Source: an uncultured bacterium (GTDB taxonomy: Bacteria > Patescibacteriota > Minisyncoccia > Phycocordibacterales > CAIRYW01). From it: a DNA stretch of 57,089 bases. This document shows positions 9,611 to 44,588 of this stretch, one piece after another. The position numbers were made by a program, and so were the translations under genes. The notes beneath the pieces were generated by a model. The model was not told where the DNA came from, made no database searches, and saw nothing but the letters and a program-made list of their open reading frames with translations. The stretch spans positions 115,117 to 172,205 of the forward strand of contig CAIRYW010000004.1 of NCBI GenBank assembly GCA_903882905.1, written 5' to 3'. Within the stretch, counting starts at the first letter, position 1. Every line of letters begins with the position of its first letter.

Positions 9611-11446
9611 TTAAGTGGCCGATTCCAGTTCAGACATTTTTTTCTTTATTTCTATAGGTATATCAGATTCTAATACTTTAAAATCTCCTTTATCATCAAC
9701 TCTTCTTTCTATAAAAGATTTACAGTCGTCAAAAGATCCAAATTTATTAATCAAATTTTTTGCTCTTTCAAAAATAACCATATCTCCTTCTTCCTGTGCG
9801 TCTAGAGCAAAGCCATATAAAGACATCTGGTTATTTTTCATAGTATTTTTCCAAAATATTTCTTGTTCTTTTGAAGAAGCATTTTTAATACTATTTTTTG
9901 CTTCTTCGAGTCTTGCTTCTGCTTTATTGAGAAGTAATTCTGGAGTAATTGGAACAGCCTCTTTGATGCCGGCCTTTACTCTCAATTGATGAAAATGTAA
10001 ATGAAATTTAAGACTTTTATAACCATCTCTACCAAGACTTGGATATATATCTGTACTTCCTTTTTTATAAGCAGAGTAAAGAATACTTTCTCCAGTATCC
10101 GAAATTTTAAATGGTTTTTTTTCTACAACACTGGTAGCTAATCTAATTTTTTCTTCACTGGAAACATCTCTCTGTCCAGATAGAACAGTATCAATTGAAA
10201 GTTTCTCACCATCTGGTTCAAAAGCATTTTCTTTCTGTCGTTTTTTTCCGTTCTCTCCAATTTCAATTTTATTTAGAACATCAAAAGGATACAATTTGCC
10301 ATCCTTCAGTGCATAAATCGGTAAGTTAAATTCTTTGGCATATTTTTGCAATTCGGAAATATCAATCGTTTCAAAATCTGGATTAAATTGTGAGATATTA
10401 ATATATAGGCCAGCAACTTTTGGTTTCTCCACTACAATCTCATTATAACTGCCATATCGTCTTTCTTCTGCTGGAGTACCAATCGCCTTATTTAAATGTT
10501 TTGATATATTTTTTTGTATACTTGTTCTTTGAATTTGTTTAGTTTCTTTATCGTATTTTGCACTTCGGCTATACAATCCTTCGGCAACAGTTCCTGAATC
10601 CTCAGCATACGCACTTAAAACTGTACCTCCACCCAAAATAACACCAAAGGTATAGAAAGTTTCTACGTCATGCTGACCCTCTCTAATTACCGAAGCTGAA
10701 ATAGTTGGTTCTAAACCCATTATTAAGGATAATTTATCTTCAGTACTAAGTGATTCAGTATTAAAGGTTGGATTATTCATAGAGGTATTTCTGTTGGCTC
10801 TATATTTTGTTGGAACACCATGTAAAAAAATATCTCCATTTTCTCTAGACAAGGTTTCAACGTCTCTGATTTCGCTTTCGCCTTCAAAAGTAGATTTCAA
10901 ATCAGATTGCTCTGTATAGAATTTTTTTAATTTATCTTTTGCGTCTTCAAGAGACGATATATCCAAAATAACACTCTCGGTTTCACCGATAATTTTTAGT
11001 CTTTCCGCAATATCTTTTTCTAAGTCTTCTAATTTCTTTTTTTCTGGACTAATACCTAATTCCTGTTCAACTTCATTTCTACGAAACAAAGAAGAAATTC
11101 TAGACCATAATTGAGCTTTTTGTTTTTCAGCTTCAACTTCCCCCGCTTTAATTTTTTCTTCAATTTGTTCTTTTTCTTGTCTAAGGGTTTCGATTGTTTT
11201 CTCTTGTTCGGCAATTAAATTTTGACGGTCAGGATTCCCTTTTTCTTTTTTAAAATACTGAAAACGCAATTCTCTGATTTCATCAGCAATTTTTTGACGT
11301 CCTGATAAAGAATATCGCTTAGAAAATTCAACTAAGTCAGAATGGGTATCCTGTGACGAAAGATTTTCATTTTCTGGAGTTGGCTCAGTATTTGAATCTA
11401 TCTCCTCATATTCGCCCTCAATTAATGTAGAATCTAGATTTTTCAT
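9611..11446 (-). CDS. Hypothetical 611-aa protein, N-terminal coiled coil plus unknown globular C-terminal region
   Basis: Long uninterrupted ORF in the operon between guaB and prs. E/K-rich heptad-like N-terminal 190 aa. No motif I recognise. Confidence 0.7.
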   Translation of the reverse strand: MKNLDSTLIEGEYEEIDSNTEPTPENENLSSQDTHSDLVEFSKRYSLSGRQKIADEIRELRFQYFKKEKGNPDRQNLIAEQEKTIETLRQEKEQIEEKIKAGEVEAEKQKAQLWSRISSLFRRNEVEQELGISPEKKKLEDLEKDIAERLKIIGETESVILDISSLEDAKDKLKKFYTEQSDLKSTFEGESEIRDVETLSRENGDIFLHGVPTKYRANRNTSMNNPTFNTESLSTEDKLSLIMGLEPTISASVIREGQHDVETFYTFGVILGGGTVLSAYAEDSGTVAEGLYSRSAKYDKETKQIQRTSIQKNISKHLNKAIGTPAEERRYGSYNEIVVEKPKVAGLYINISQFNPDFETIDISELQKYAKEFNLPIYALKDGKLYPFDVLNKIEIGENGKKRQKENAFEPDGEKLSIDTVLSGQRDVSSEEKIRLATSVVEKKPFKISDTGESILYSAYKKGSTDIYPSLGRDGYKSLKFHLHFHQLRVKAGIKEAVPITPELLLNKAEARLEEAKNSIKNASSKEQEIFWKNTMKNNQMSLYGFALDAQEEGDMVIFERAKNLINKFGSFDDCKSFIERRVDDKGDFKVLESDIPIEIKKKMSELESAT

Positions 11447-11476
11447 GCATTTACATTATAGCAATGTATCAATGTT

Positions 11477-12349
11477 TTACCCTTTTACAATTGCATCCAA
11501 AATAAGGCCAGAAACATCCACGTTTGAGTCTTCTCTTTTTATACTGTTAGTTAAATATAATGATGAGTAAACAGTTAAAAGTCTTTTTATTCCTGAGACC
11601 AATACTCCGTGACTAATTAGAGCTATCACATCAGTTGCACCAAATTTTTTACATTCATCTGCAAACTTTGAGACAGTACCTCCAGTTTCAACGAGATCAT
11701 CAACTACACCAACAACTTTTCCTTTTACAACATTCTTAAAATCATCGTCACATTCAATACATATATCAAAAGAATTTTTTCTTTTCTTTTGTGTACCTTT
11801 TAAATTTGCTCTTCTTTGTGATCCAGCATCAGGAGCTAGAAAAACTGCATCTGGATATTTTGCCTGTGCTGCTTTTTTCAAAACTTCTACTGCAGAAACA
11901 TTCGTAATCGGATATTTCTCCACCCAATCTCGGCCAAAAAAATGTGCGTCTATTGCATAGATTCGCTTGACCTTATAATAATTACATAATTTTGAAACAA
12001 GATCTTCAGCTGCGTTTGTTTCGCCTGGATTACTTGCATGATCTTGCATACTGTATGGAAAATATGAAAAAAATACTTCAACTGTGGCCTTGGTTCTCGC
12101 TAAAACACTTAAAACCATCTGGAGTTCAACTAAACCCTTACTTGGACCAGACTGTCCTGAATGAACAACAACGACTCTCCAATCAATTTCTTTTACAGAA
12201 TCCGGCAAACGTACATAAACTTCGTCATCTGGAAAAAATCTTTGACCTTCTTTGTTTCCGAGTGGATATAAAATATCGTAATCATTTGGTAGTTTCATCA
12301 ACTTCACTAAGTGCTCGGCTCTGATGGTCGGAATGATTGTTGTTTTCAT
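11477..12349 (-). CDS. prs: Ribose-phosphate pyrophosphokinase (PRPP synthetase)
   Basis: 290 aa. FPDDEVYVRL, FFSYFPYSMQD and PRPP-binding loop VVGVVDDLVETGGT. Confidence 0.8.
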   Translation of the reverse strand: MKTTIIPTIRAEHLVKLMKLPNDYDILYPLGNKEGQRFFPDDEVYVRLPDSVKEIDWRVVVVHSGQSGPSKGLVELQMVLSVLARTKATVEVFFSYFPYSMQDHASNPGETNAAEDLVSKLCNYYKVKRIYAIDAHFFGRDWVEKYPITNVSAVEVLKKAAQAKYPDAVFLAPDAGSQRRANLKGTQKKRKNSFDICIECDDDFKNVVKGKVVGVVDDLVETGGTVSKFADECKKFGATDVIALISHGVLVSGIKRLLTVYSSLYLTNSIKREDSNVDVSGLILDAIVKG

Positions 12350-12460
12350 TTTTAATTTTTATTTATTTATTAAAATTATATTATCACGGTTCGAGAGCAT
12401 GACGAAATTATTTTGATTTTTTCTCAAAAAAAAGCTACAGTTATGAAGTTTTAAATACAT

Positions 12461-12531
12461 TGCGGGATCGTCTAATGGTAGGACTGCGGCTTTTGGAGCC
12501 GCGTATATTGTTTCGAGTCCAAGTCCCGCAG
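12461..12531 (+). tRNA. tRNA-Gln (anticodon TTG), T-stem imperfect
   Basis: Hand-folded. Acceptor tgcggga/tcccgca, D-arm gtct-aatggta-ggac, anticodon arm gcggc-ttTTGga-gccgc, T-loop ttcgagt. The T-stem attgt/ccaag has only 3 Watson-Crick pairs (53-61 is T-C), so it may be partly decayed. Confidence 0.6.
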
Positions 12532-12720
12532 TTTTTGAACGCAGTGAAAAACTGCGGGAAAGAAGCAAATAATTTTGCTTCTTTCATGGACTCGAAGCCC
12601 GATTGAGATAATTTATGAGGGACGAAATAAATTATCCAATTGCGGGTATTGAAGCTGTAAGCTTCGAGATTCCAAGTCCAGTATGAAAATTTTTAGTCGA
12701 GGAAGAGACTCCAAGTCCTA
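12525..12720 (+). repeat. tRNA-Gln 3' hairpin plus variant tRNA-linked element with T-arm-complementary and T-arm-like segments
   Basis: Hairpin cccgcagttttt/aaaaactgcggg starts inside the acceptor 3' strand. ggactcgaa (rc of T-loop ttcgagtcc) lies at 12588-12596. An 18-bp hairpin spans 12598-12646. Partial tRNA 3' copies are cttcgagattccaagtcc (12662-12679) and gactccaagtcc (12707-12718). Confidence 0.45.
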
Positions 12721-12798
12721 TAAAATTTTTATAAAAAATGCGATACCCTATTCGAGTATCGCTGTTAACGAACATTTACTTTGCAGAGACAGAGCGGG

Positions 12799-14736
12799 TC
12801 AGATTACACCCGCTTTTTGCAGCCTTGCTGCGAGCTTGACCATGACTCCGACGCTTCCGCCGTTTCGGATCTGTTCCTTCTGATGATCGGAGAGTTCGAA
12901 TTTCCAACCACAATCCTCACCGGCCCACTTCACTGCACCGTTTTCCCAGTCGATATTGACCGACCGCAGTTTCGAAGCAAAGAGGACGTTGATATGATTT
13001 TTTGGCATAACCACACAGAGCAGGCCGTTCGCGAACATGCTGTTGTAGAAGATGCGAGCAAAACTCGGTGCGATGACGCACCGAATGCCCGCGCCCTCAA
13101 GCGCCCAAGGCGCGTGTTCGCGTGAAGAGCCTGTGCCGAAGTTTTCTCCCGCCACTAGAATTTGGGAGCTGAAGAGCTTCGGTTTATCCTCCGGCGAAAC
13201 CGAAGAATCTTCCAAGCAGTGCTTACCGAACTCCGACTTCCTGGTCTCGTTCAGATACTTGGCTGGAATGATTTGGTCAGTGTCCACATTGGCATCTGGC
13301 AGGTAAAAAACGCTGCCTGAAAAATCCTTCACCTCGCCAACACTAAAAAGATGAAGAAGATTGCTGTAGTCAGGTTTTTGCGAAGGGATATCCTTCCAGT
13401 CACTACCGCAGGTTTGACCCCACGACGACACGCCGCCGATTTCATCAGCAACGTCCTTGCAAAGGCTGACTGATGGTTCCGATACCACTCCGTTGATCGC
13501 GGTATAGGCCGCAGTCGCAGGAGACACCAAATGAACCATACCGCTTTCGCCCATGCGTCCCGGGAAGTTTCGGTTTGTCGTCGAAACGCAAACCTCCCCC
13601 GGAGCGATGACACCGCAACTCATCCCAAGACAGGCCCCGCAATTCGGACCACTCACGAAACACCCCGCCTTGACGAAGGTTTCGAGGAGTCCTCTTTTGA
13701 GAGCCATCTCGTAGATATGCTGGGTAGCTGGAACAACAATGCAGCGGACACCGTCCGCAACCTTGCCGCCCTTCAGACGAAATACTGCTTCCGCGATGCG
13801 CAAATCTTCCAACCGGCCGTTTGTGCACGAACCGATGTAAACCTGATCGACGGGCTTTCCCGCCATTTTCGAAACAGGAACAACATCGCCCGGAGAATAG
13901 TTGTCAGTGATGACCGGAACCATTTCCGAAACGTCGATCTCGACCACCTGGTCATAAACCGCGCCTTCATCACTGTTCCAACGTTTCCAGTCGATGTTTT
14001 GATTCGGGGACAAGGATTTCATGTAATTGATCGTGGTTTGATCCACCATCATCATCCCCGACGTTGCACCTGCCTCGACTGCCATGTTGCTGATTGGCAT
14101 CCGAGCTTCCATGCTCATACCTTCGATGACTGAGCCACCGAATTCGAGCACTGCGTTGGCGGCACCTTTCACGCCGATTCTGTTGATCAAGGTGAGGATG
14201 AGGTCCTTCGAATAAACGTTTGCCGGCAGGGTGCCAACGAAATTTACGCGAATGACTTTTTGGGGAGGACAAATCCAAAGCCCGGTAATGATACCGTTCT
14301 CGAGGTCTGTTGTGCCAACCCCTGCCGCCAGAGCGCAGAAAGCGCCGTGTGTGCAAGTATGACTGTCTCCCATAATTCCCACCTCACCTGGACGAATCCA
14401 GCCCTTTTCTGGAATGATCGCATGGCAAATTCCGTTGCGTCCGACGTCGAGGAACTCGATTCCGTGTTTCTTACTCCAGTCACGGATGATTTTTCCTTGA
14501 ACCGCCGATGCCGTGTCTTTGGCCGGGTTGACATGATCGATCATGGCTTTGATTTTGTTAGGATCGAAAACTACGTCGACCCCGCGACCTTGTGCGTCGA
14601 GAATTGCGTTGGGAGTGGTGATTTCGTGGCACCAAACCCTGTCCAATCCGAGAACCACACCGCCGTCCGGCATGACCATTTTGCAATGGCTGTCGAGAAT
14701 TTTCTGAAACGCTGTTTTTGGATTTTTTTCTTTCAT
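12799..14736 (-). CDS. Aconitase-family dehydratase, fused LeuC-like large plus LeuD-like small subunit (3-isopropylmalate/homoaconitate dehydratase-like)
   Basis: 645 aa. GDSHTCTHGAF, GSCTNGRLEDL and STTNRNFPGRMG (Fe-S ligand regions), then the swivel domain GENFGTGSSREHAPWAL. The DNA is conspicuously GC-rich relative to the rest of the window. Confidence 0.85.
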   Translation of the reverse strand: MKEKNPKTAFQKILDSHCKMVMPDGGVVLGLDRVWCHEITTPNAILDAQGRGVDVVFDPNKIKAMIDHVNPAKDTASAVQGKIIRDWSKKHGIEFLDVGRNGICHAIIPEKGWIRPGEVGIMGDSHTCTHGAFCALAAGVGTTDLENGIITGLWICPPQKVIRVNFVGTLPANVYSKDLILTLINRIGVKGAANAVLEFGGSVIEGMSMEARMPISNMAVEAGATSGMMMVDQTTINYMKSLSPNQNIDWKRWNSDEGAVYDQVVEIDVSEMVPVITDNYSPGDVVPVSKMAGKPVDQVYIGSCTNGRLEDLRIAEAVFRLKGGKVADGVRCIVVPATQHIYEMALKRGLLETFVKAGCFVSGPNCGACLGMSCGVIAPGEVCVSTTNRNFPGRMGESGMVHLVSPATAAYTAINGVVSEPSVSLCKDVADEIGGVSSWGQTCGSDWKDIPSQKPDYSNLLHLFSVGEVKDFSGSVFYLPDANVDTDQIIPAKYLNETRKSEFGKHCLEDSSVSPEDKPKLFSSQILVAGENFGTGSSREHAPWALEGAGIRCVIAPSFARIFYNSMFANGLLCVVMPKNHINVLFASKLRSVNIDWENGAVKWAGEDCGWKFELSDHQKEQIRNGGSVGVMVKLAARLQKAGVI

Positions 14737-14928
14737 CTTAGTCTTTCTGTGTTTTGGCTCTGCTGAGCCGTTGTTATGTCAATGAGTAAAACCTAGGAAT
14801 TTCCCAAATTTTTTCTCTATTTCCGTTAGCTACATTACAAGGAATCTAATATTCCGTCAATTATAAAAGCAAAGTATTTATTACCCATTAATATGCTTTT
14901 GATGTAGAATGAGACAAACAGGTCCAAA

Positions 14929-15219
14929 ATGTTCGATAAAAAACATGCGCAGTATGCAGATATTATTCACCGCCTAATCAGGGACAAGTTTCAGGAAAAC
15001 ATGAGACAAGTTTTCTTTGATGATGAATCTCCATGGGCAGGTGAAACTCAACATTTCAGTGGGATCACAGATCCAGGAACAGATTTTTCGGGTGGCATGG
15101 TTTTAGCTGAGGACGACACAGCTCGGATCATCACGACCATTCAAATTGTGGTCGGAAAACGAAAAGGTTCCTTTGAGTATCGCCCGGGGTTATTAGTGGA
15201 AAATTTTTTCCCTTACTGA
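14929..15219 (+). CDS. Hypothetical 96-aa protein (part of GC-elevated island)
   Basis: Only an ORF with intermediate GC. No recognisable motif. Confidence 0.35.
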   Translation: MFDKKHAQYADIIHRLIRDKFQENMRQVFFDDESPWAGETQHFSGITDPGTDFSGGMVLAEDDTARIITTIQIVVGKRKGSFEYRPGLLVENFFPY

Positions 15220-15280
15220 CCCCATTTTTTATATAGATTTAAACTAAGCTAATCGCAAAAAAATCAAAATTTATATGAGA

Positions 15281-16063
15281 CTAAAATTCAAAGCCAGTTT
15301 CTACCTCGTTTGGCCTCCACGCAGGTTTTTCATCATCAATGTTATTTTGTGTAAATGGTTTAACTCCTGTAGACGTTCCAGTTGGTCCCACTAAATACAA
15401 TCTTCGATTTTCATTATTAAAAAAAACTTTTTCCTCACCATTAAGCATTTTGGGTCCGGAAATTACAACTGGTTCAAATCCAAAAACAGACCTTACTTGT
15501 TCTGAAAGAACTTTTATTGATTCCTCGTACTCGTCTTGTACAACCCCGTCACGATATGTATTATTGTTAATTTTTATTACTCTGATTATGTAGCTCCCAC
15601 CCACAATAACTATATCAATTGTTCCTTCTGTGCATCTGGATTTTAATTCGTCAAGTGACTCAACTAGCGCACGTGAGGTGCTTTCTTTATATTGTTTTAA
15701 GGATCTAGGATTTTGATGTGTGAGAAATGAAATATTTTTTCCAGTTTCTTTCTCCATACCAACTGCAACAACACCAGTACAATTGGCATATTCAAAAGAT
15801 TTTTTGTTTCTGTCATCAATTGGGGAAATAATACAAATACCGGATGCAATAACTTTAAATCCTTTCTTTTCTAATTCATCACTATACTCACCATACTTAA
15901 CATCAAGAGAATTGGAAGGGTCTTCAAATTCCTTAACAAAATCATTTTGTAATAACCCAAACTCTTCATCAGAAATTACACATCCTATTATAGGCTGCAC
16001 ACCTTCATTTAAATGCTCAGATTTTAAAGAGTTTATTTCTTCTTTCGGATTTTCTAGATTCAT
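15281..16063 (-). CDS. Hypothetical 260-aa protein
   Basis: The ORF starts 4 nt downstream of the dnaX stop, so it is probably co-transcribed. No secure motif. Confidence 0.6.
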   Translation of the reverse strand: MNLENPKEEINSLKSEHLNEGVQPIIGCVISDEEFGLLQNDFVKEFEDPSNSLDVKYGEYSDELEKKGFKVIASGICIISPIDDRNKKSFEYANCTGVVAVGMEKETGKNISFLTHQNPRSLKQYKESTSRALVESLDELKSRCTEGTIDIVIVGGSYIIRVIKINNNTYRDGVVQDEYEESIKVLSEQVRSVFGFEPVVISGPKMLNGEEKVFFNNENRRLYLVGPTGTSTGVKPFTQNNIDDEKPAWRPNEVETGFEF

Positions 16064-16066
16064 ATA

Positions 16067-17092
16067 TTAACTGAGGTTTATAGCAAACAATTCTAAAGAA
16101 AGTTCCGGAATAAACGAGCGTTCTGATTCCATCACTGCTAAAAGCAATTTTCGGAGGACTTCACTGTTCCATTGCATTTCTTTTGAACCAGCACATTCTT
16201 TTATAAATTTAATTCTTTCTTCTGAATAACGATGATTTAAATTTTGCTCATACGTTGGAGAAAATTTTATCAAAACAATATCTCTAATTTTTTCAAGCGC
16301 TAGCTTTCCAAAAAGTTCCATATTCATATTGCTTTCTTTTGCCTCATTTAAAACCTTAAGAGTATTATCAACTTCCTTCTTCCCTACTGAAACAATAAAT
16401 TTTTCAATTAAGGATTCTTTTGGAGTTCCTAAGGATTTTTCAGTGTCACCGAGTTTTATTACTTTTGTGGAAATTGAGCTGATTATTTTTTGAAGTGCTC
16501 CAATTGCATCGCGAAATGAACCGCCTGCAATAAGTGAAATTAAATCAGCTGAATCTTCCTCTATTTCAAAACCTTCTTTTTTTGCAATTTTACTAACGAC
16601 TTTTGAAAGAATAATTCTTGTTGGTTTTTTGAATTCACATATCTGACAACGCGACTGAATTGTTTCAGGAATTTTTTCTAGTTCAGTTGTAGCTAAAATA
16701 AAAATGACATGCTTTGGTGGCTCCTCTAAAGTCTTCAAAAGTGCGTTCCACGCTTCACGAGTAAGCATGTGAGCTTCATCAATTAAATAAACTTTTTTTG
16801 GTGAAGAAAAAGGCAGTGTTTCAATTGTTTCTCGAAGCGCTCTAATATCATCAATTCCTCTGTTTGAGGCAGCATCTATTTCATACAAATCATCATCAGT
16901 TGTGCCTAATTCCCTCGCAAAAATTCTAGCAACTGAAGTTTTGCCCGTTCCACGAGAACCTGCAAAAATATATGCATGCGAAATTCTTTCTTCTGAAATT
17001 GAATTTGTAAGTAGCGAAACAACTTCGTCTTGATTAATTACTTCACTAAATTTTTGCGGTCGATATTTTCGATAAAGTGTTTCGTGGTTCAT
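16067..17092 (-). CDS. dnaX: DNA polymerase III gamma/tau subunit (short form)
   Basis: 341 aa. Walker A GSRGTGKTS, Walker B/DEAH-like IDEAHML, sensor SRCQ. Confidence 0.92.
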   Translation of the reverse strand: MNHETLYRKYRPQKFSEVINQDEVVSLLTNSISEERISHAYIFAGSRGTGKTSVARIFARELGTTDDDLYEIDAASNRGIDDIRALRETIETLPFSSPKKVYLIDEAHMLTREAWNALLKTLEEPPKHVIFILATTELEKIPETIQSRCQICEFKKPTRIILSKVVSKIAKKEGFEIEEDSADLISLIAGGSFRDAIGALQKIISSISTKVIKLGDTEKSLGTPKESLIEKFIVSVGKKEVDNTLKVLNEAKESNMNMELFGKLALEKIRDIVLIKFSPTYEQNLNHRYSEERIKFIKECAGSKEMQWNSEVLRKLLLAVMESERSFIPELSLELFAINLS

Positions 17093-35850: not shown

Positions 35851-36666
35851 CTATTTGACGAGACTTACTACTCCATCTGCGCCTATAAAAGACCCTTCAT
35901 CAACACCAACCGTTGTCGCAGAAGGAGCGTAGAAACCAATCAAATTTGCATTTGTATCAAGTAAAATTAATGACGCAGTAGAATTTGTCGGCTTAAAATC
36001 AGTAGTAAGTGCTAAAGTTTTTACACCATTTATCAAGACTGGGGAAATTTGTTTAATAATGCCAGTCGAGACAACGTTACCTGATTCATCTCCTCCAATA
36101 GCAATGACGTTAAAGCCAATTTTTAATTTCGCTGAAGGAATAATTTTTATTGTTTGAATAGTCTTGGCAGCTTTATCATCTGTCAATTTATAAAGAGCCA
36201 GTCCTGTTCCCAATTCTTTTACATAATTAATTTGATATTGCTTTTGATCTGACAAAACTGTCACATAATTGTAGGTCGCTGAAGTATCGGTTGCATCAGC
36301 TGCAATTATATTATTCCCAGAAACCATAACACCAAGTGTTGTAAATTCTGGTGTTGTTGTACCTGCAATTGTCCTATATATTCTTATCAAACTTCCACTA
36401 GTTTTATCCGCAATATCAGAAATACTTAAAGCTTGTGGTTGTTGATTTGAAGTATCTTGAGTTATATCTGGAATAATTTTTCTAACAGGAGAATCAGATG
36501 CAACTTGAGAAATAGTTTTTTCTATAACCCTATACGCTATTTGTTGAACACCAGGATTTGTAGAATTATCAGCCAAGGAAAAAATAGTTATACCAGTTGC
36601 AACGGCTGTTGCAAAGCTTACGAGAAGCGCCAAGAGAATTACTTGCTGTTTAGTTAGATGATCCAT
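35851..36666 (-). CDS. Membrane-anchored trypsin-fold (HtrA-like) domain protein, catalytic serine motif not evident
   Basis: 271 aa with an N-terminal TM. The layout GSLIRIY...VIAIGGDESGNVVSTGIIKQIS...LILLDTNANLIGF parallels HtrA blocks, but there is no GNSGG-type motif. Confidence 0.4.
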   Translation of the reverse strand: MDHLTKQQVILLALLVSFATAVATGITIFSLADNSTNPGVQQIAYRVIEKTISQVASDSPVRKIIPDITQDTSNQQPQALSISDIADKTSGSLIRIYRTIAGTTTPEFTTLGVMVSGNNIIAADATDTSATYNYVTVLSDQKQYQINYVKELGTGLALYKLTDDKAAKTIQTIKIIPSAKLKIGFNVIAIGGDESGNVVSTGIIKQISPVLINGVKTLALTTDFKPTNSTASLILLDTNANLIGFYAPSATTVGVDEGSFIGADGVVSLVK

Positions 36667-37852
36667 AATTTAATTGATTCAATAATATAACAGAAAGCGC
36701 CTTCAGGCAAAAATCAATATCTCCTTTTGTTGTACTCCTTCCAAACGAAAAACGAAGTGTTGAATTTTTTTTGTAAATATCTCCAGTTGTTCTATTAATC
36801 GCATCAATTACGTACGAACCTTTTTCTTCATTGATACTATTCAATGTTAGGCATGCACTAGCTGAAGCACACATAATTCCCTCTTTATCTAATTGAAAGA
36901 CTGCAAATTCTGAATCTAAGCCTTTAATCGAAACACTTGAGATACCAGGAATTCTTAACACATTTTTTGCATTTATTTCAGAACCTTTTATTTGTGCAAT
37001 AATTTTATTTTCAAAATAATCTCTAATTTTTGCTAGTCTGATTGATTCTTTGTTGCGAATTTTTACTGACTCTTCTAATGCGACAGAAAAACCAACGATA
37101 GCAGGCAAGTTTTCTGTTCCAGCTCTTAAACCTTTTTCTTGTCCGCCTCCTAAAGTTACTGGAGAAATTTCTAATTTTGATTTCTTAAATAACACTCCAG
37201 CTTTTGGTCCATAAAATTTTGAGGAATCGAGAGTCAAAAGATCAATGCCGAGAGTAACAACATCAATATCTAAAAAACCAGGTGCCTGACTAGCATCGGT
37301 ATGAAAATAAGGAAACTCAGATTGAAATATTTTTCTTGCGTGTCTAATTTCTTTTGCAATTTCTTTGATCGGTTCGATAACCCCTATCTCATTATTAGCA
37401 AGCATAACTGAAACAAAAACAGTTTCCTTGCGAATTTTTTTTCTGATTTCTTTTGCACTTATTACTCCATTTTGGTCTGGAATAATTTCTTCTACATCAA
37501 AGCCCCAATTTCGAAGCGATCGTGCTGGCTCAAGAACTGATGAATGCTCAATAGCAGAAATTAAGATATGTGGTTTATTAATTTTATTTTTGACTATTTT
37601 TGAAATCCCAAAAATTGCTAAATTATTTGCTTCCGTACCTGAAGAAGTAAAAATTATTTCATCTTTTCTTGCATTAATTAATTTTGCAACTTTAATGCGA
37701 CTTTCTTCCAAAATCTTCTGAGCTTTTTTTCCAGATTCATATAATGAGGCAGGATTATAAAAAACATCCATTGTTTTTAGGACAGCTAATTTCACCCTAG
37801 GCGATATCGGAGTCCCTGACGCAAAATCCATATATACTTTTCGGTTTTTCAT
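36650..37852 (-). CDS. Cysteine desulfurase (class V aminotransferase, NifS/IscS-like)
   Basis: 400 aa. FTSSGTEANN, PLP-Lys region DSSKFYGPK, active-site loop ASASAC. Confidence 0.85.
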   Translation of the reverse strand: MKNRKVYMDFASGTPISPRVKLAVLKTMDVFYNPASLYESGKKAQKILEESRIKVAKLINARKDEIIFTSSGTEANNLAIFGISKIVKNKINKPHILISAIEHSSVLEPARSLRNWGFDVEEIIPDQNGVISAKEIRKKIRKETVFVSVMLANNEIGVIEPIKEIAKEIRHARKIFQSEFPYFHTDASQAPGFLDIDVVTLGIDLLTLDSSKFYGPKAGVLFKKSKLEISPVTLGGGQEKGLRAGTENLPAIVGFSVALEESVKIRNKESIRLAKIRDYFENKIIAQIKGSEINAKNVLRIPGISSVSIKGLDSEFAVFQLDKEGIMCASASACLTLNSINEEKGSYVIDAINRTTGDIYKKNSTLRFSFGRSTTKGDIDFCLKALSVILLNQLNYGSSN

Positions 37853-44479: not shown

Positions 44480-44552
44480 CCACCCATAGCTCAGTCGGTA
44501 GAGCAGCTCCCTTTTAAGGAGAGGGTCGTAGGTTCGATTCCTACTGGGTGGA
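44480..44552 (+). tRNA. tRNA-Lys (anticodon TTT)
   Basis: Acceptor ccaccca/tgggtgg, D-arm gctc-agtcggta-gagc, anticodon loop ctTTTaa, T-arm gtagg-ttcgatt-cctac. No encoded CCA. Confidence 0.85.
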
Positions 44553-44588
44553 CAATTTAACAGCGAAGCTGGTAAATTATCCGCCCAA

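What the first reader, a model, noticed from the sequence alone, without database searches (positions are those of the whole stretch)
12780..15230. GC-rich foreign island next to tRNA-Gln carrying a lone fused LeuC-LeuD-type dehydratase
The composition switches abruptly from the AT-rich background to clearly GC-rich DNA across 12.8-14.8 kb. As a by-product, all six frames show long spurious ORFs there.

The single real gene encodes an aconitase-family dehydratase with large and small subunits fused in one 645-aa chain. No other leucine/lysine/TCA pathway genes are nearby.

A second ORF of intermediate GC (14929-15219) follows. The position beside a tRNA carrying repeat debris fits horizontal acquisition. 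A chimeric assembly is the alternative explanation.
Basis: partly seen in the sequence, partly recalled or inferred. Interest (0 to 1): 0.6.

Follow-up and report, generated by a model that had tools for sequence, protein, structure and literature searches.

The report
Lone GC-rich fused leuCD gene
A tiny AT-rich Patescibacteria (CPR) genome carries one intact, strongly GC-rich gene for a fused leucine-pathway isomerase (LeuC+LeuD) with no pathway partners; the gene is real and accessory, but its odd composition is a long-kept trait of this gene family in such genomes, so it does not prove a fresh foreign import.

Summary
Observation confirmed. Window 12.78-14.79 kb is the most GC-rich kilobase of the 746-kb genome (0.54 vs 0.348). 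It equals one gene, 12799-14736(-), 645 aa, GC3 0.593 against a genome mean of 0.237.

The protein is a fused LeuC-LeuD isopropylmalate-isomerase-type enzyme with all catalytic and Fe-S residues intact. Basal clade members sit in full leuA-leuCD-leuB-ilv operons. 19 of 21 other loci have leuB directly downstream. Here leuB is missing, and I found no leu/ilv, citrate synthase, SufBD or radical-SAM genes in the genome.

Misassembly is very unlikely: a separate 3.4-kb scaffold is 100% identical across both junctions.

The gene is accessory. It was not found in 40 relatives or 400 phylum genomes, and it lies in a hypervariable dnaX/tRNA-Gln segment. It is not foreign to the phylum: it belongs to a Patescibacteria-specific fused clade and is sister to a congener's copy with core-like divergence.

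GC-richness is confined to the coding sequence. In four syntenic genomes the cassette stays GC-rich although neutral sites of the flanks are saturated. A second, unrelated gene of this genome behaves the same way. GC is therefore a poor clock here.

The scan had noted this cassette and 'persistently GC-rich' Patescibacteria genes on other DNA before; I reached the same reading independently.

The parts
12460..12532 (+). tRNA-Gln (anticodon UUG)
   Evidence: ARAGORN and Rfam tRNA at 44.4 bits. In congeners G001 and G003, and in the distant loci L054 and L026, the same tRNA follows dnaX in tandem. Here and in G002 it is convergent with dnaX.
12533..12720 (+). tRNA-linked repeat element ('debris'). 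It has a hairpin made of the tRNA acceptor 3' strand and its complement (12524-12536 / 12547-12559), a second hairpin (12558-12585), a conserved core (about 12588-12667) and two T-arm copies (12668-12679, 12707-12718).
   Evidence: the repeat finder families D2, D8, I7 and I11. The core matches four other places in congener G001. The one of these checked lies ~330 nt downstream of tRNA-Val. No copy lies on the far side of the gene.
12740..12762 (-). Intrinsic terminator directly after the leuCD stop codon (9-bp stem, T-run)
   Evidence: Terminator scan. A hairpin sits at the same position after the leuCD stop in L004, L005, L026, L052 and L054.
12799..14736 (-). Fused leuCD gene: 645-aa LeuC-type large domain (residues 1-~425), ~45-aa linker, LeuD-type swivel domain (~470-630). 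GC 0.525, GC3 0.593.
   Evidence: Residues invariant across the clade are present in this protein: D124-S125-H126, C304, C366, C369, N388-R389-N390, R394 and G536-S-S-R-E-H541. The start at 14736 is supported because homologues align from residue 2-7.
14737..14928 (-). AT-rich upstream region of leuCD (GC 0.34) with a small hairpin at 14755-14770. No consensus promoter and no Shine-Dalgarno motif.
   Evidence: By eye there is only a weak TTGACG-17-TAATGT at 14860-14832(-); this is an inference.
14929..15219 (+). Orphan 96-aa ORF of intermediate GC (0.426; GC3 0.40), divergent from leuCD. Coding status unproven.
   Evidence: No Pfam or NCBIfam hit. No homologue other than itself. It is present in the independent scaffold L045 and was not detected in the related loci compared (L048-L051, L023-L025).
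15281..16063 (-). Native 260-aa gene next to dnaX; this is the island's boundary (GC3 0.222).
   Evidence: A 63%-identical homologue sits in the same position after dnaX in L048 and L049.
16067..17092 (-). dnaX, the conserved anchor of the region
   Evidence: NCBIfam TIGR02397, 315 bits. It is 74-91% identical in congeners.

Best explanation
The island is one intact gene for a single-chain isopropylmalate-isomerase-type [4Fe-4S] dehydratase, a LeuC domain fused to a LeuD domain.

It belongs to a fused-LeuCD clade specific to Patescibacteria. The clade's original setting is a complete leu/ilv operon in moderately GC-rich (~0.47) members. In AT-rich Patescibacteria it survives, or spreads, as a two-gene leuCD-leuB cassette.

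In this lineage the cassette is an accessory element of some age. It was probably present before the split from a congener that still has leuCD-leuB at another locus. It now lies in the hypervariable segment between dnaX/h260 and tRNA-Gln. A rearrangement just behind its terminator has removed leuB.

Its GC-rich codons are a property of the coding sequence. They have been kept over long vertical descent, by selection on base composition or by GC-biased repair tied to exchange between lineages. They are not the scar of a fresh import.

Biochemically it should catalyse the reversible 2-alkylmalate / 3-alkylmalate isomerisation through its C304/C366/C369-bound cluster. With no LeuA, LeuB or IlvE in the genome its physiological substrate and use are unknown. 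It may be a still-constrained remnant, or an enzyme fed by host-derived intermediates.

Shown: gene identity, intactness, phyletic pattern, synteny, CDS-confined GC, and persistence of GC in syntenic relatives.
Inferred: age in this lineage, cause of the GC bias, activity and substrate.
For: Identity:
- Pfam Aconitase plus Aconitase_C.
- NCBIfam NF001614 at 493.6 bits (cut-off 385) and TIGR01343 at 451.6 (cut-off 385.7); the C-terminal part matches the LeuD models.
- The best solved structures are the M. jannaschii isopropylmalate/citramalate isomerase large subunit 4NQY/4KP1 (E 8e-101) and LeuD small subunits.
- Catalytic and cluster residues are invariant.
- dN/dS is 0.07-0.14 against relatives.

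Pathway role of the clade:
- L053 and L066 carry leuA-leuCD-leuB-...-ilvE-ilvD-ilvB-ilvC on contigs whose GC equals that of the gene.
- leuB lies directly downstream in 19 of 21 metagenome loci, and also in L004, L005, L026, L027, L052 and L054.

Clade and relatives:
- The fused clade is monophyletic (SH-aLRT 98). Its sister group is the unfused LeuC of Lentisphaeria, Desulfosporosinus and Treponema.
- The window's protein is sister to P0006 (SH-aLRT 96).
- P0006 comes from assembly GCA_964964325.1. Core proteins of that assembly are 61-89% identical to ours, and the leuCD proteins are 73% identical.
- Synonymous within-class identity is 0.68-0.76 for leuCD and 0.62 for core genes.

Accessory status:
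- No copy in 3 congeners, 20 family genomes and 20 order genomes.
- No close copy in 400 genomes sampled across the phylum.
- The close relative L048 (GMP synthase 95% identical) has DUF3750 plus adh_short in this slot.

Assembly: scaffold L045 is 100% identical to window 12429-15810.

Composition:
- The 150 nt up- and downstream are AT-rich (0.21-0.43) in all loci.
- In the four syntenic genomes L005, L026, L054 and L060, the S/W state at 4-fold sites of the flanks is saturated (0.41-0.49 observed against 0.44-0.48 expected). The cassette's GC4 is 0.42-0.68 against 0.28-0.42 for the flanks.
- On the window's branch, S>W and W>S changes are balanced (12-14 each).
- A second GC-rich gene (G000:C10:39425-40780) is syntenic and GC-rich in four genomes of three genera at 37-77% identity.
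Against: - The gene is absent from the closest species representative, G001, and sits at a different locus in the carrier congener. Two independent imports from related donors would fit as well as one old gain plus a loss.
- Within the clade GC3 ranges from 0.23 to 0.62. Some copies (L004, L054) are clearly decaying. Maintenance is therefore not universal.
- In all six pairs the cassette is less diverged at synonymous sites than its flanks. That could mean later exchange between lineages and not constraint.
- The tree is a 'quick' IQ-TREE run without bootstraps.
- The parsimony and 4-fold-site counts are crude and come from near-saturated data.
- No reads could be inspected.
- Enzyme activity is untested.
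- No SufBD or radical-SAM genes were found, so it is not shown how the cluster would be built.
Confidence: 0.55

Rival explanations
1. Recent horizontal import. A ~2-kb piece from a GC-richer donor, most likely another Patescibacteria carrying the cassette, was inserted next to tRNA-Gln after this lineage split from its nearest relatives. It has had no time to drift towards the host's composition. leuB was never brought in, or was deleted at once.
For: - GC3 is 0.593 against 0.237, nearly 6 sd out, with donor-like codon choice: CGC/CGG, CTC/CTG, ATC, TCG.
- The gene is absent from G001-G003 and from the close relative L048 at this site.
- The slot is hypervariable, with different cargo in each relative.
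- S>W and W>S changes on the window's branch are balanced.
- The cassette lies within 300 nt of a tRNA gene in 4 of about 22 distinct contexts. A rough binomial gives p = 0.007.
- The closest homologue, P0003, lies beside a large serine recombinase.
Against: - No sequence above 75% identity exists among 5.8 billion proteins apart from the genome's own copy.
- The window's gene is sister to a congener's copy, with divergence like that of core genes.
- GC-richness stops exactly at the CDS ends here and in all other loci.
- The same contrast persists in syntenic, long-diverged genomes and in another gene of this genome. Composition therefore gives no date.
- No integrase lies nearby and no direct repeats bracket the gene.
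Confidence: 0.3
2. Deep vertical inheritance. leuCD-leuB has been linked to dnaX/tRNA-Gln since an early Paceibacteria ancestor and has been lost in nearly all descendants.
For: In the distant loci L054 and L026 the cassette lies 3.7-3.9 kb downstream of the same dnaX-tRNA-Gln(UUG) pair. In the window it lies between dnaX and tRNA-Gln. Chance linkage within 5 kb of a given point in a 750-kb genome is about 1%.
Against: - 0 of 20 family genomes and 0 of 20 order genomes carry the fused gene; one order genome has only a 38% LeuC-only hit. 0 of 400 phylum genomes carry it. That would need very many losses.
- The congener carries it at an unrelated locus.
- tRNA genes in general are enriched beside the cassette, which points to tRNA-linked hot spots and not to an inherited neighbourhood.
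Confidence: 0.1
3. Assembly or binning chimera: a GC-rich fragment from another organism was spliced into an AT-rich contig.
For: The composition break is abrupt.
Against: - A separate ENA scaffold, seen in two samples, is 100% identical over 3382 bp and spans both junctions.
- The breaks coincide with the start codon and the terminator of one intact gene.
- The same CDS-sized contrast recurs in at least 15 independent assemblies made with different assemblers.
- Both flanks are syntenic with relatives on a 172-kb contig.
Confidence: 0.02

Closest known systems
Isopropylmalate/citramalate isomerase LeuC-LeuD of Methanocaldococcus jannaschii (PDB 4KP1/4NQY large subunit, 3VBA small subunit) and the PRK00402 / TIGR01343 'HacA family'
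   Same: It is the best sequence match to a solved structure: E 8e-101 over residues 11-421. The protein passes both subfamily cut-offs. The [4Fe-4S] ligands and the GDSH, NRN..R and GSSREH motifs are the same.
   Different: Here the two subunits form one 645-aa chain with a ~45-aa linker. The small domain scores best with the bacterial-type LeuD model PRK01641, at 144.8 bits against a cut-off of 167. The equivalog cut-offs for LeuC are not reached.
Fungal Leu1 (single-chain isopropylmalate isomerase) and the fused 'putative aconitase' families TIGR01342 / PRK07229
   Same: Large-then-small domain order in a single polypeptide of about 650-770 aa. The comparison with Leu1 rests on general knowledge of that enzyme.
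   Different: An independent fusion. The nearest relatives, in Lentisphaeria, Desulfosporosinus and Treponema (46-56% identical), have two separate genes. Scores for TIGR01342 and PRK07229 are far below their cut-offs (285.7 against 719; 342 against 612).
Compositionally atypical, horizontally acquired islets beside tRNA genes, read with the amelioration model of Lawrence and Ochman 1997 (cited in PMC12455944)
   Same: Sharp GC and codon-usage contrast, patchy phyletic distribution, tRNA-adjacent hypervariable slot.
   Different: There is no integrase and there are no bracketing direct repeats. The contrast is confined to the CDS. It persists in syntenic genomes whose neutral sites are saturated, which the amelioration model does not predict.
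'Large G+C-rich genes' (lgr) of Protochlamydia amoebophila (PMC2216083; abstract read only)
   Same: Individual genes that are much more GC-rich than their host chromosome.
   Different: These are unrelated proteins (LRR proteins), recent paralogues within a single genome. They are not a conserved metabolic enzyme shared across many genomes.

Membership tests
Aconitase superfamily (Pfam PF00330 + PF00694) | Both domains match above the gathering score | tested here: met
   353.8 bits (cut-off 28.7) and 77.7 bits (cut-off 22.8).
Aconitase superfamily | Three cysteine ligands of the [4Fe-4S] cluster and the catalytic Asp-Ser-His, Asn-Arg-Asn..Arg and Ser-Arg motifs | tested here: met
   C304, C366, C369; D124-S125-H126; N388-R389-N390, R394; S537-S538-R539. 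All are invariant in 17 clade members, this protein included. The assignment of roles rests on general knowledge of aconitase and IPMI.
LeuC/HacA-type large subunit (NF001614 / TIGR01343) | Score above the curated subfamily cut-off | tested here: met
   493.6 against 385, and 451.6 against 385.7.
LeuC equivalogs (TIGR02083, TIGR00170) and HacA equivalog (NF040615) | Score above the equivalog cut-off | tested here: not met
   406.1 against 610.65; 306.1 against 560.25; 363.3 against 550. Substrate specificity therefore cannot be read from these models.
LeuD small subunit | C-terminal domain matches LeuD models above the cut-off | tested here: inconclusive
   TIGR02087 scores 110.8 against 108.95 (just met). 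PRK01641 scores 144.8 against 167 and TIGR00171 scores 113.2 against 116.25 (not met).
Leucine biosynthesis isomerase (functional LeuCD) | Operon or genome context with leuA and leuB | tested here: not met
   This genome has no Iso_dh, no HMGL-like and no Aminotran_4 gene, and no tblastn match to Patescibacteria LeuA, LeuB, IlvB, IlvC, IlvD or IlvE. The feature is met for other clade members.
Leucine biosynthesis isomerase (functional LeuCD) | Isomerase activity on 2-isopropylmalate | not testable with these tools
   Needs enzymology or complementation.
tRNA-integrated genomic island | Integrase gene, plus direct repeats of the tRNA 3' end bracketing the insert | tested here: not met
   No recombinase was found among the genes at 8-17 kb. 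All three T-arm copies lie on the tRNA side of the gene, and none lies at 14.7-15.3 kb.
Recently transferred gene (amelioration framework) | Atypical composition together with absence from close relatives | tested here: met
Recently transferred gene (amelioration framework) | Composition decays with residence time, so the contrast implies recency | tested here: not met
   The contrast persists at a shared site in L005, L026, L054 and L060 although the flanks are saturated. It also persists in the 451-aa gene across three genera.

The most novel reading that the evidence does not exclude
The GC-rich coding sequence of leuCD, and of a handful of other patchily distributed genes in the same genome, is actively held far above the genome's mutational equilibrium (GC3 about 0.6 against 0.24) for longer than it takes neutral sites to saturate.

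The cause would be gene-specific selection on base composition (for example AU-poor, stable mRNA) or GC-biased gene conversion tied to repeated exchange of these accessory genes between lineages. If so, composition-based detection of horizontal transfer misleads systematically in Patescibacteria, and an undescribed force shapes a special gene class there.
Probability: 0.45. Interest if true: 0.7.

Novelty: new variant of a known kind. Interest (0 to 1): 0.45.

Why it matters
There are three points.

1. Annotation. The gene is a real, intact, single-chain LeuCD in an organism that has no other step of the pathway. Metabolic reconstructions should not score 'leucine biosynthesis' from it. It is a candidate for cross-feeding with a host, or for a non-canonical use.

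2. Method. In these ultra-small genomes a sharp GC island is not a reliable sign of recent transfer or misassembly. Binning and HGT detectors that rely on composition will misjudge such genes, and may drop them from MAGs.

3. Biology. If the GC bias is maintained, the leuCD-leuB cassette is a tractable case for finding out what maintains it. It is conserved, alignable and present in many genomes, with both 'kept' and 'decaying' copies.

Tried and rejected
- Misassembly: rejected on the independent scaffold and on recurrence in other assemblies.
- Phage-borne auxiliary gene: no relative in IMG/VR viral contigs. Only one locus (L046/L047) has a serine recombinase and a weak DUF5049 next to the cassette, and those genes are less GC-rich than the cassette.
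- Integrative island bracketed by tRNA repeats: no far-side repeat here. None bracket the cassette in other tRNA-adjacent loci.
- leuB pseudogene remnant downstream: none, even at E = 10.
- Riboswitch, T-box or other known RNA in 12.3-15.4 kb: only the tRNA.
- Translational selection for host-optimal codons: EF-Tu has GC3 0.275, and RpoB, RpoC and enolase about 0.21.
- 'Shine-Dalgarno-led gene class' (a lead from earlier notes): no SD-like motif precedes leuCD. Only 3 of 18 GC-rich ORFs have one, against 3% of backbone ORFs.
- Antisense ORFs as real genes: not pursued. Long shadow ORFs follow from G/C-rich third positions.
- Simple 'excess identity at 4-fold sites' as a clock: abandoned because a shift in composition itself lowers identity. 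It was replaced by within-class and S/W-class counts.
- Literature: no paper was found describing this cassette in Patescibacteria.
Full report

Yes. GC climbs from 0.30-0.38 to 0.52-0.57 between about 12.78 and 14.79 kb and falls back. The window is G000:C4:115117-172205 of a 745,831-bp, 29-contig genome with GC 0.348, rated 92% complete.

Names given to close DnaX homologues place the genome in Candidatus Paceibacterota, part of the Patescibacteria/CPR.

The 1-kb window centred near window position 13.4 kb is the most GC-rich of the whole genome: 0.54 against a mean of 0.348, sd 0.032. The only comparable stretches are the rRNA genes and a few other single genes.

The island equals one ORF, 12799-14736(-), 645 aa. 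Its GC1/2/3 are 0.559/0.423/0.593. The genome means are 0.455/0.350/0.237, and the sd of GC3 is 0.060.

Codon choice differs throughout: Arg CGC/CGG instead of AGA, Leu CTC/CTG instead of TTA/CTT, Ile ATC 0.70 with no ATA, Ser TCG 0.35 against 0.05.

The many shadow ORFs on both strands follow from G/C-rich third positions.

tRNA-Gln(UUG) lies at 12460-12532. Behind it are two further copies of its T-arm and a hairpin built from its acceptor end.

**2. What is the gene?**

- Pfam finds Aconitase plus Aconitase_C.
- NCBIfam places the first ~420 residues in the LeuC/HacA subfamilies above their cut-offs (NF001614, TIGR01343). The last ~170 residues match LeuD models. All equivalog models stay below their cut-offs.
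- The nearest solved structures are the M. jannaschii isopropylmalate/citramalate isomerase large subunit (4NQY/4KP1, E 8e-101) and LeuD small subunits.
- In an alignment of 17 clade members the cluster ligands (C304, C366, C369) and the catalytic motifs (D124-S-H126, N388-R-N390, R394, G536-SSREH-541) are invariant, and all are present in the window's protein.
- Pairwise dN/dS is 0.07-0.14.

The gene is therefore intact and has been under purifying selection.

**3. What do relatives tell about function?**

More than a hundred homologues at 63-75% identity exist. The few with source names are Patescibacteria.

In a tree the fused proteins form one clade (SH-aLRT 98). The sister group is the unfused LeuC of Lentisphaeria, Desulfosporosinus and Treponema, where large and small subunits are separate genes whose GC equals that of their flanks.

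A basal member (L053) and L066 lie in full operons: leuA - fused leuCD - leuB - (PALP/LeuA_dimer protein) - ilvE - ilvD - ilvB - ilvC. Those contigs have GC 0.45-0.51, the same as the gene. The clade is thus a genuine isopropylmalate isomerase.

In most other genomes only a two-gene unit remains: leuCD plus a LeuB-like Iso_dh gene. That partner scores best with TIGR00169, at 234-247 bits against a cut-off of 353. It lies directly downstream in 19 of 21 metagenome loci and in six of the loci fetched earlier.

The window, and L007, lack the partner. There is no leuB remnant.

None of the following was found in the genome: Iso_dh, HMGL-like (LeuA/CimA), citrate synthase, Aminotran_4, SufBD or radical-SAM genes. 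One class-V aminotransferase (cysteine-desulfurase type) is present.

The enzyme is a metabolic orphan here, and its physiological use cannot be inferred.

**4. Is it a misassembly?**

Very unlikely.

- An ENA scaffold from another assembly (L045, 3382 bp, recorded in two samples) is 100% identical to window 12429-15810 and spans both junctions.
- The compositional breaks coincide with the start codon and with a canonical terminator at 12762-12740(-).
- The same gene-sized contrast recurs in many independent assemblies.

**5. Is it an acquired island?**

The gene is accessory. It was not found in 3 same-genus, 20 same-family and 20 same-order genomes; one 38% LeuC-only hit turned up. It was not found in 400 genomes spread over the phylum; two 45-49% LeuC-only hits turned up.

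The region is hypervariable:

| Genome | Arrangement |
|---|---|
| G001, G003 | dnaX followed directly by tRNA-Gln |
| G003 (continued) | then GmrSD and an isochorismatase before IMPDH |
| G002 | a 978-aa cadherin-like/PG-binding protein and a 234-aa ORF between tRNA-Gln and dnaX |
| L048 (GMP synthase 95% identical) | dnaX - h260 - DUF3750 - adh_short - IMPDH |
| This window | dnaX - h260 - ORF96 - leuCD - element - tRNA-Gln - prs-like - h611 - IMPDH |

The 260-aa gene is therefore native. The island proper is leuCD plus the orphan ORF96.

No integrase is present. The T-arm copies all lie between the tRNA and the gene, so they do not bracket it. Their conserved core recurs in four other places in congener G001; the one of these I checked lies behind tRNA-Val. 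This matches the tRNA-linked element family described in earlier notes of this scan.

Across loci, the cassette lies within 300 nt of a tRNA gene (Gln, Glu, Thr, Leu/Cys) in 4 of about 22 distinct contexts. A rough binomial gives p = 0.007. tRNA-linked hot spots therefore seem to be where it lands or survives.

**6. The gene is not foreign to the clade, and GC does not date it.**

The window's protein is sister (SH-aLRT 96) to P0006. P0006 comes from GCA_964964325.1, an assembly whose DnaX falls in the same 90% cluster as ours.

- Core proteins of the two genomes are 61-89% identical; the leuCD proteins are 73% identical.
- Within-class identity at 4-fold sites is 0.68-0.76 for leuCD and 0.62 for pooled core genes.
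- That congener carries leuCD-leuB at an unrelated locus.

The divergence fits co-divergence with the genomes. It also fits two gains from related donors.

The contrast is confined to the CDS everywhere. The 150 nt up- and downstream have GC 0.21-0.43 in all loci, and the leuCD-leuB spacers are AT-rich apart from a hairpin.

The strongest test comes from four genomes that hold the cassette at the same site, with shared S24 peptidase, PAP2, ClpB-like, CAP and other flanking genes: L005, L026, L054 and L060.

- In the flanks, the strong/weak (S/W) state of 4-fold sites is saturated in all six pairs: 0.41-0.49 observed against 0.44-0.48 at independence.
- The cassette nevertheless has GC4 of 0.42-0.68, against 0.28-0.42 for the flanks.
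- It is also less diverged within base classes: 0.73-0.83 against 0.60-0.66.
- Polarised changes show two regimes. L004 and L054 are decaying (S>W 16-39 against W>S 2-9). The window and L005 are balanced (12-14 against 12-14; 7 against 7-19).

A second, unrelated GC-rich gene of this genome (G000:C10:39425-40780, 451 aa, no Pfam hit) sits at the same syntenic site in G001, G012 and G008. It is 77%, 41% and 37% identical there. In all four genomes it is a CDS-sized island of GC 0.50-0.54 in flanks of 0.31-0.41.

Highly expressed genes are AT-rich at third positions (EF-Tu 0.275, RpoB 0.21), so the bias is not the host's codon optimum. No Shine-Dalgarno motif precedes leuCD.

I conclude that GC-richness is a long-lived property of these coding sequences. 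It may be maintained by selection on composition, by GC-biased conversion during exchange between lineages, or by repeated allelic replacement. I cannot tell these apart.

**7. Verdict**

The reading 'horizontally acquired island' is partly supported. The gene is accessory and sits in a hot spot. It is native to the phylum's gene pool, probably not a fresh arrival, and its composition cannot be used as evidence of recency. Chimeric assembly is effectively excluded.

The enzyme is an ordinary family member in an unusual single-chain form, stranded without its pathway.

After reaching this reading I found that earlier notes of this scan describe the same leuCD-leuB cassette and 'persistently GC-rich' Patescibacteria genes on other DNA. 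One of those notes was later marked as partly failed. I count them as agreeing leads, not as support.

No published description of the cassette turned up. General HGT and genomic islands in Patescibacteria are documented (PMC12455944).

Noticed in passing
G000:C10:39425-40780 (outside the window); L136, L140, L141, L142: A 451-aa orphan gene (no Pfam hit) with GC3 0.588. It sits at the same syntenic site in four genomes of three genera at 37-77% identity. In each it is a CDS-sized GC island of 0.50-0.54 in flanks of 0.31-0.41.
   Followed up: yes
G000: C8:7426-8208(-), C10:29981-31150(-), C4:43822-44406(+), and ORFs on C28, C27, C11, C19, C21 and C24: About a dozen further ORFs with GC3 above 0.45 lie scattered in a genome whose mean GC3 is 0.24. 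The two scanned have no Pfam hit.
   Followed up: partly
window 44480-44553: ARAGORN calls a tRNA with anticodon UUA ('tRNA-Stop', which would read UAA). Long ORFs under table 11 argue against a recoded genome.
   Followed up: no
window 9611-15220 compared with L048, L023, L024, L025, L050 and L051: The whole segment between h260/dnaX and IMPDH is replaced in close relatives by different cargo: DUF3750 plus adh_short; GmrSD plus isochorismatase; a 978-aa cadherin-like/PG-binding protein. tRNA-Gln is inverted relative to dnaX in two of the genomes.
   Followed up: partly
L047:13-1338(-) and L047:1466-1660(-): The closest homologue of the window's gene (P0003, 75%) lies next to a large serine recombinase and a weak DUF5049 ORF. 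Both are less GC-rich (0.39-0.46) than the cassette (0.53).
   Followed up: partly
L028:7638-9569(-): The Falkowbacteria-labelled contig carries a second fused LeuCD-like paralogue, 52% identical to the window's protein. It lies divergently next to the leuCD-leuB pair.
   Followed up: no
L026 (CAZSCE010000001.1): This contig is labelled 'Candidatus Saccharibacteria', yet it is syntenic over more than 10 kb with L005, L054 and L060 and has the dnaX-type tRNA-Gln upstream. Either the label is loose or all four belong to one lineage.
   Followed up: partly
G000, whole genome: No radical-SAM and no SufBD genes were detected in a 92%-complete genome; only one class-V aminotransferase is present at window 36650-37852. 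The fused LeuCD may be one of very few Fe-S proteins of this organism.
   Followed up: partly
G000:C19:46-817: A partial second 16S rRNA copy lies at a contig start, besides the full copy on C2.
   Followed up: no
L056, L061, L063, L068, L058, L059: The leuCD-leuB cassette often lies within 50-300 nt of tRNA genes of different identity (Glu, Thr, Leu, Cys). In L061 and L056 a copy of a tRNA-Ser tail lies between tRNA-Glu and the cassette.
   Followed up: partly
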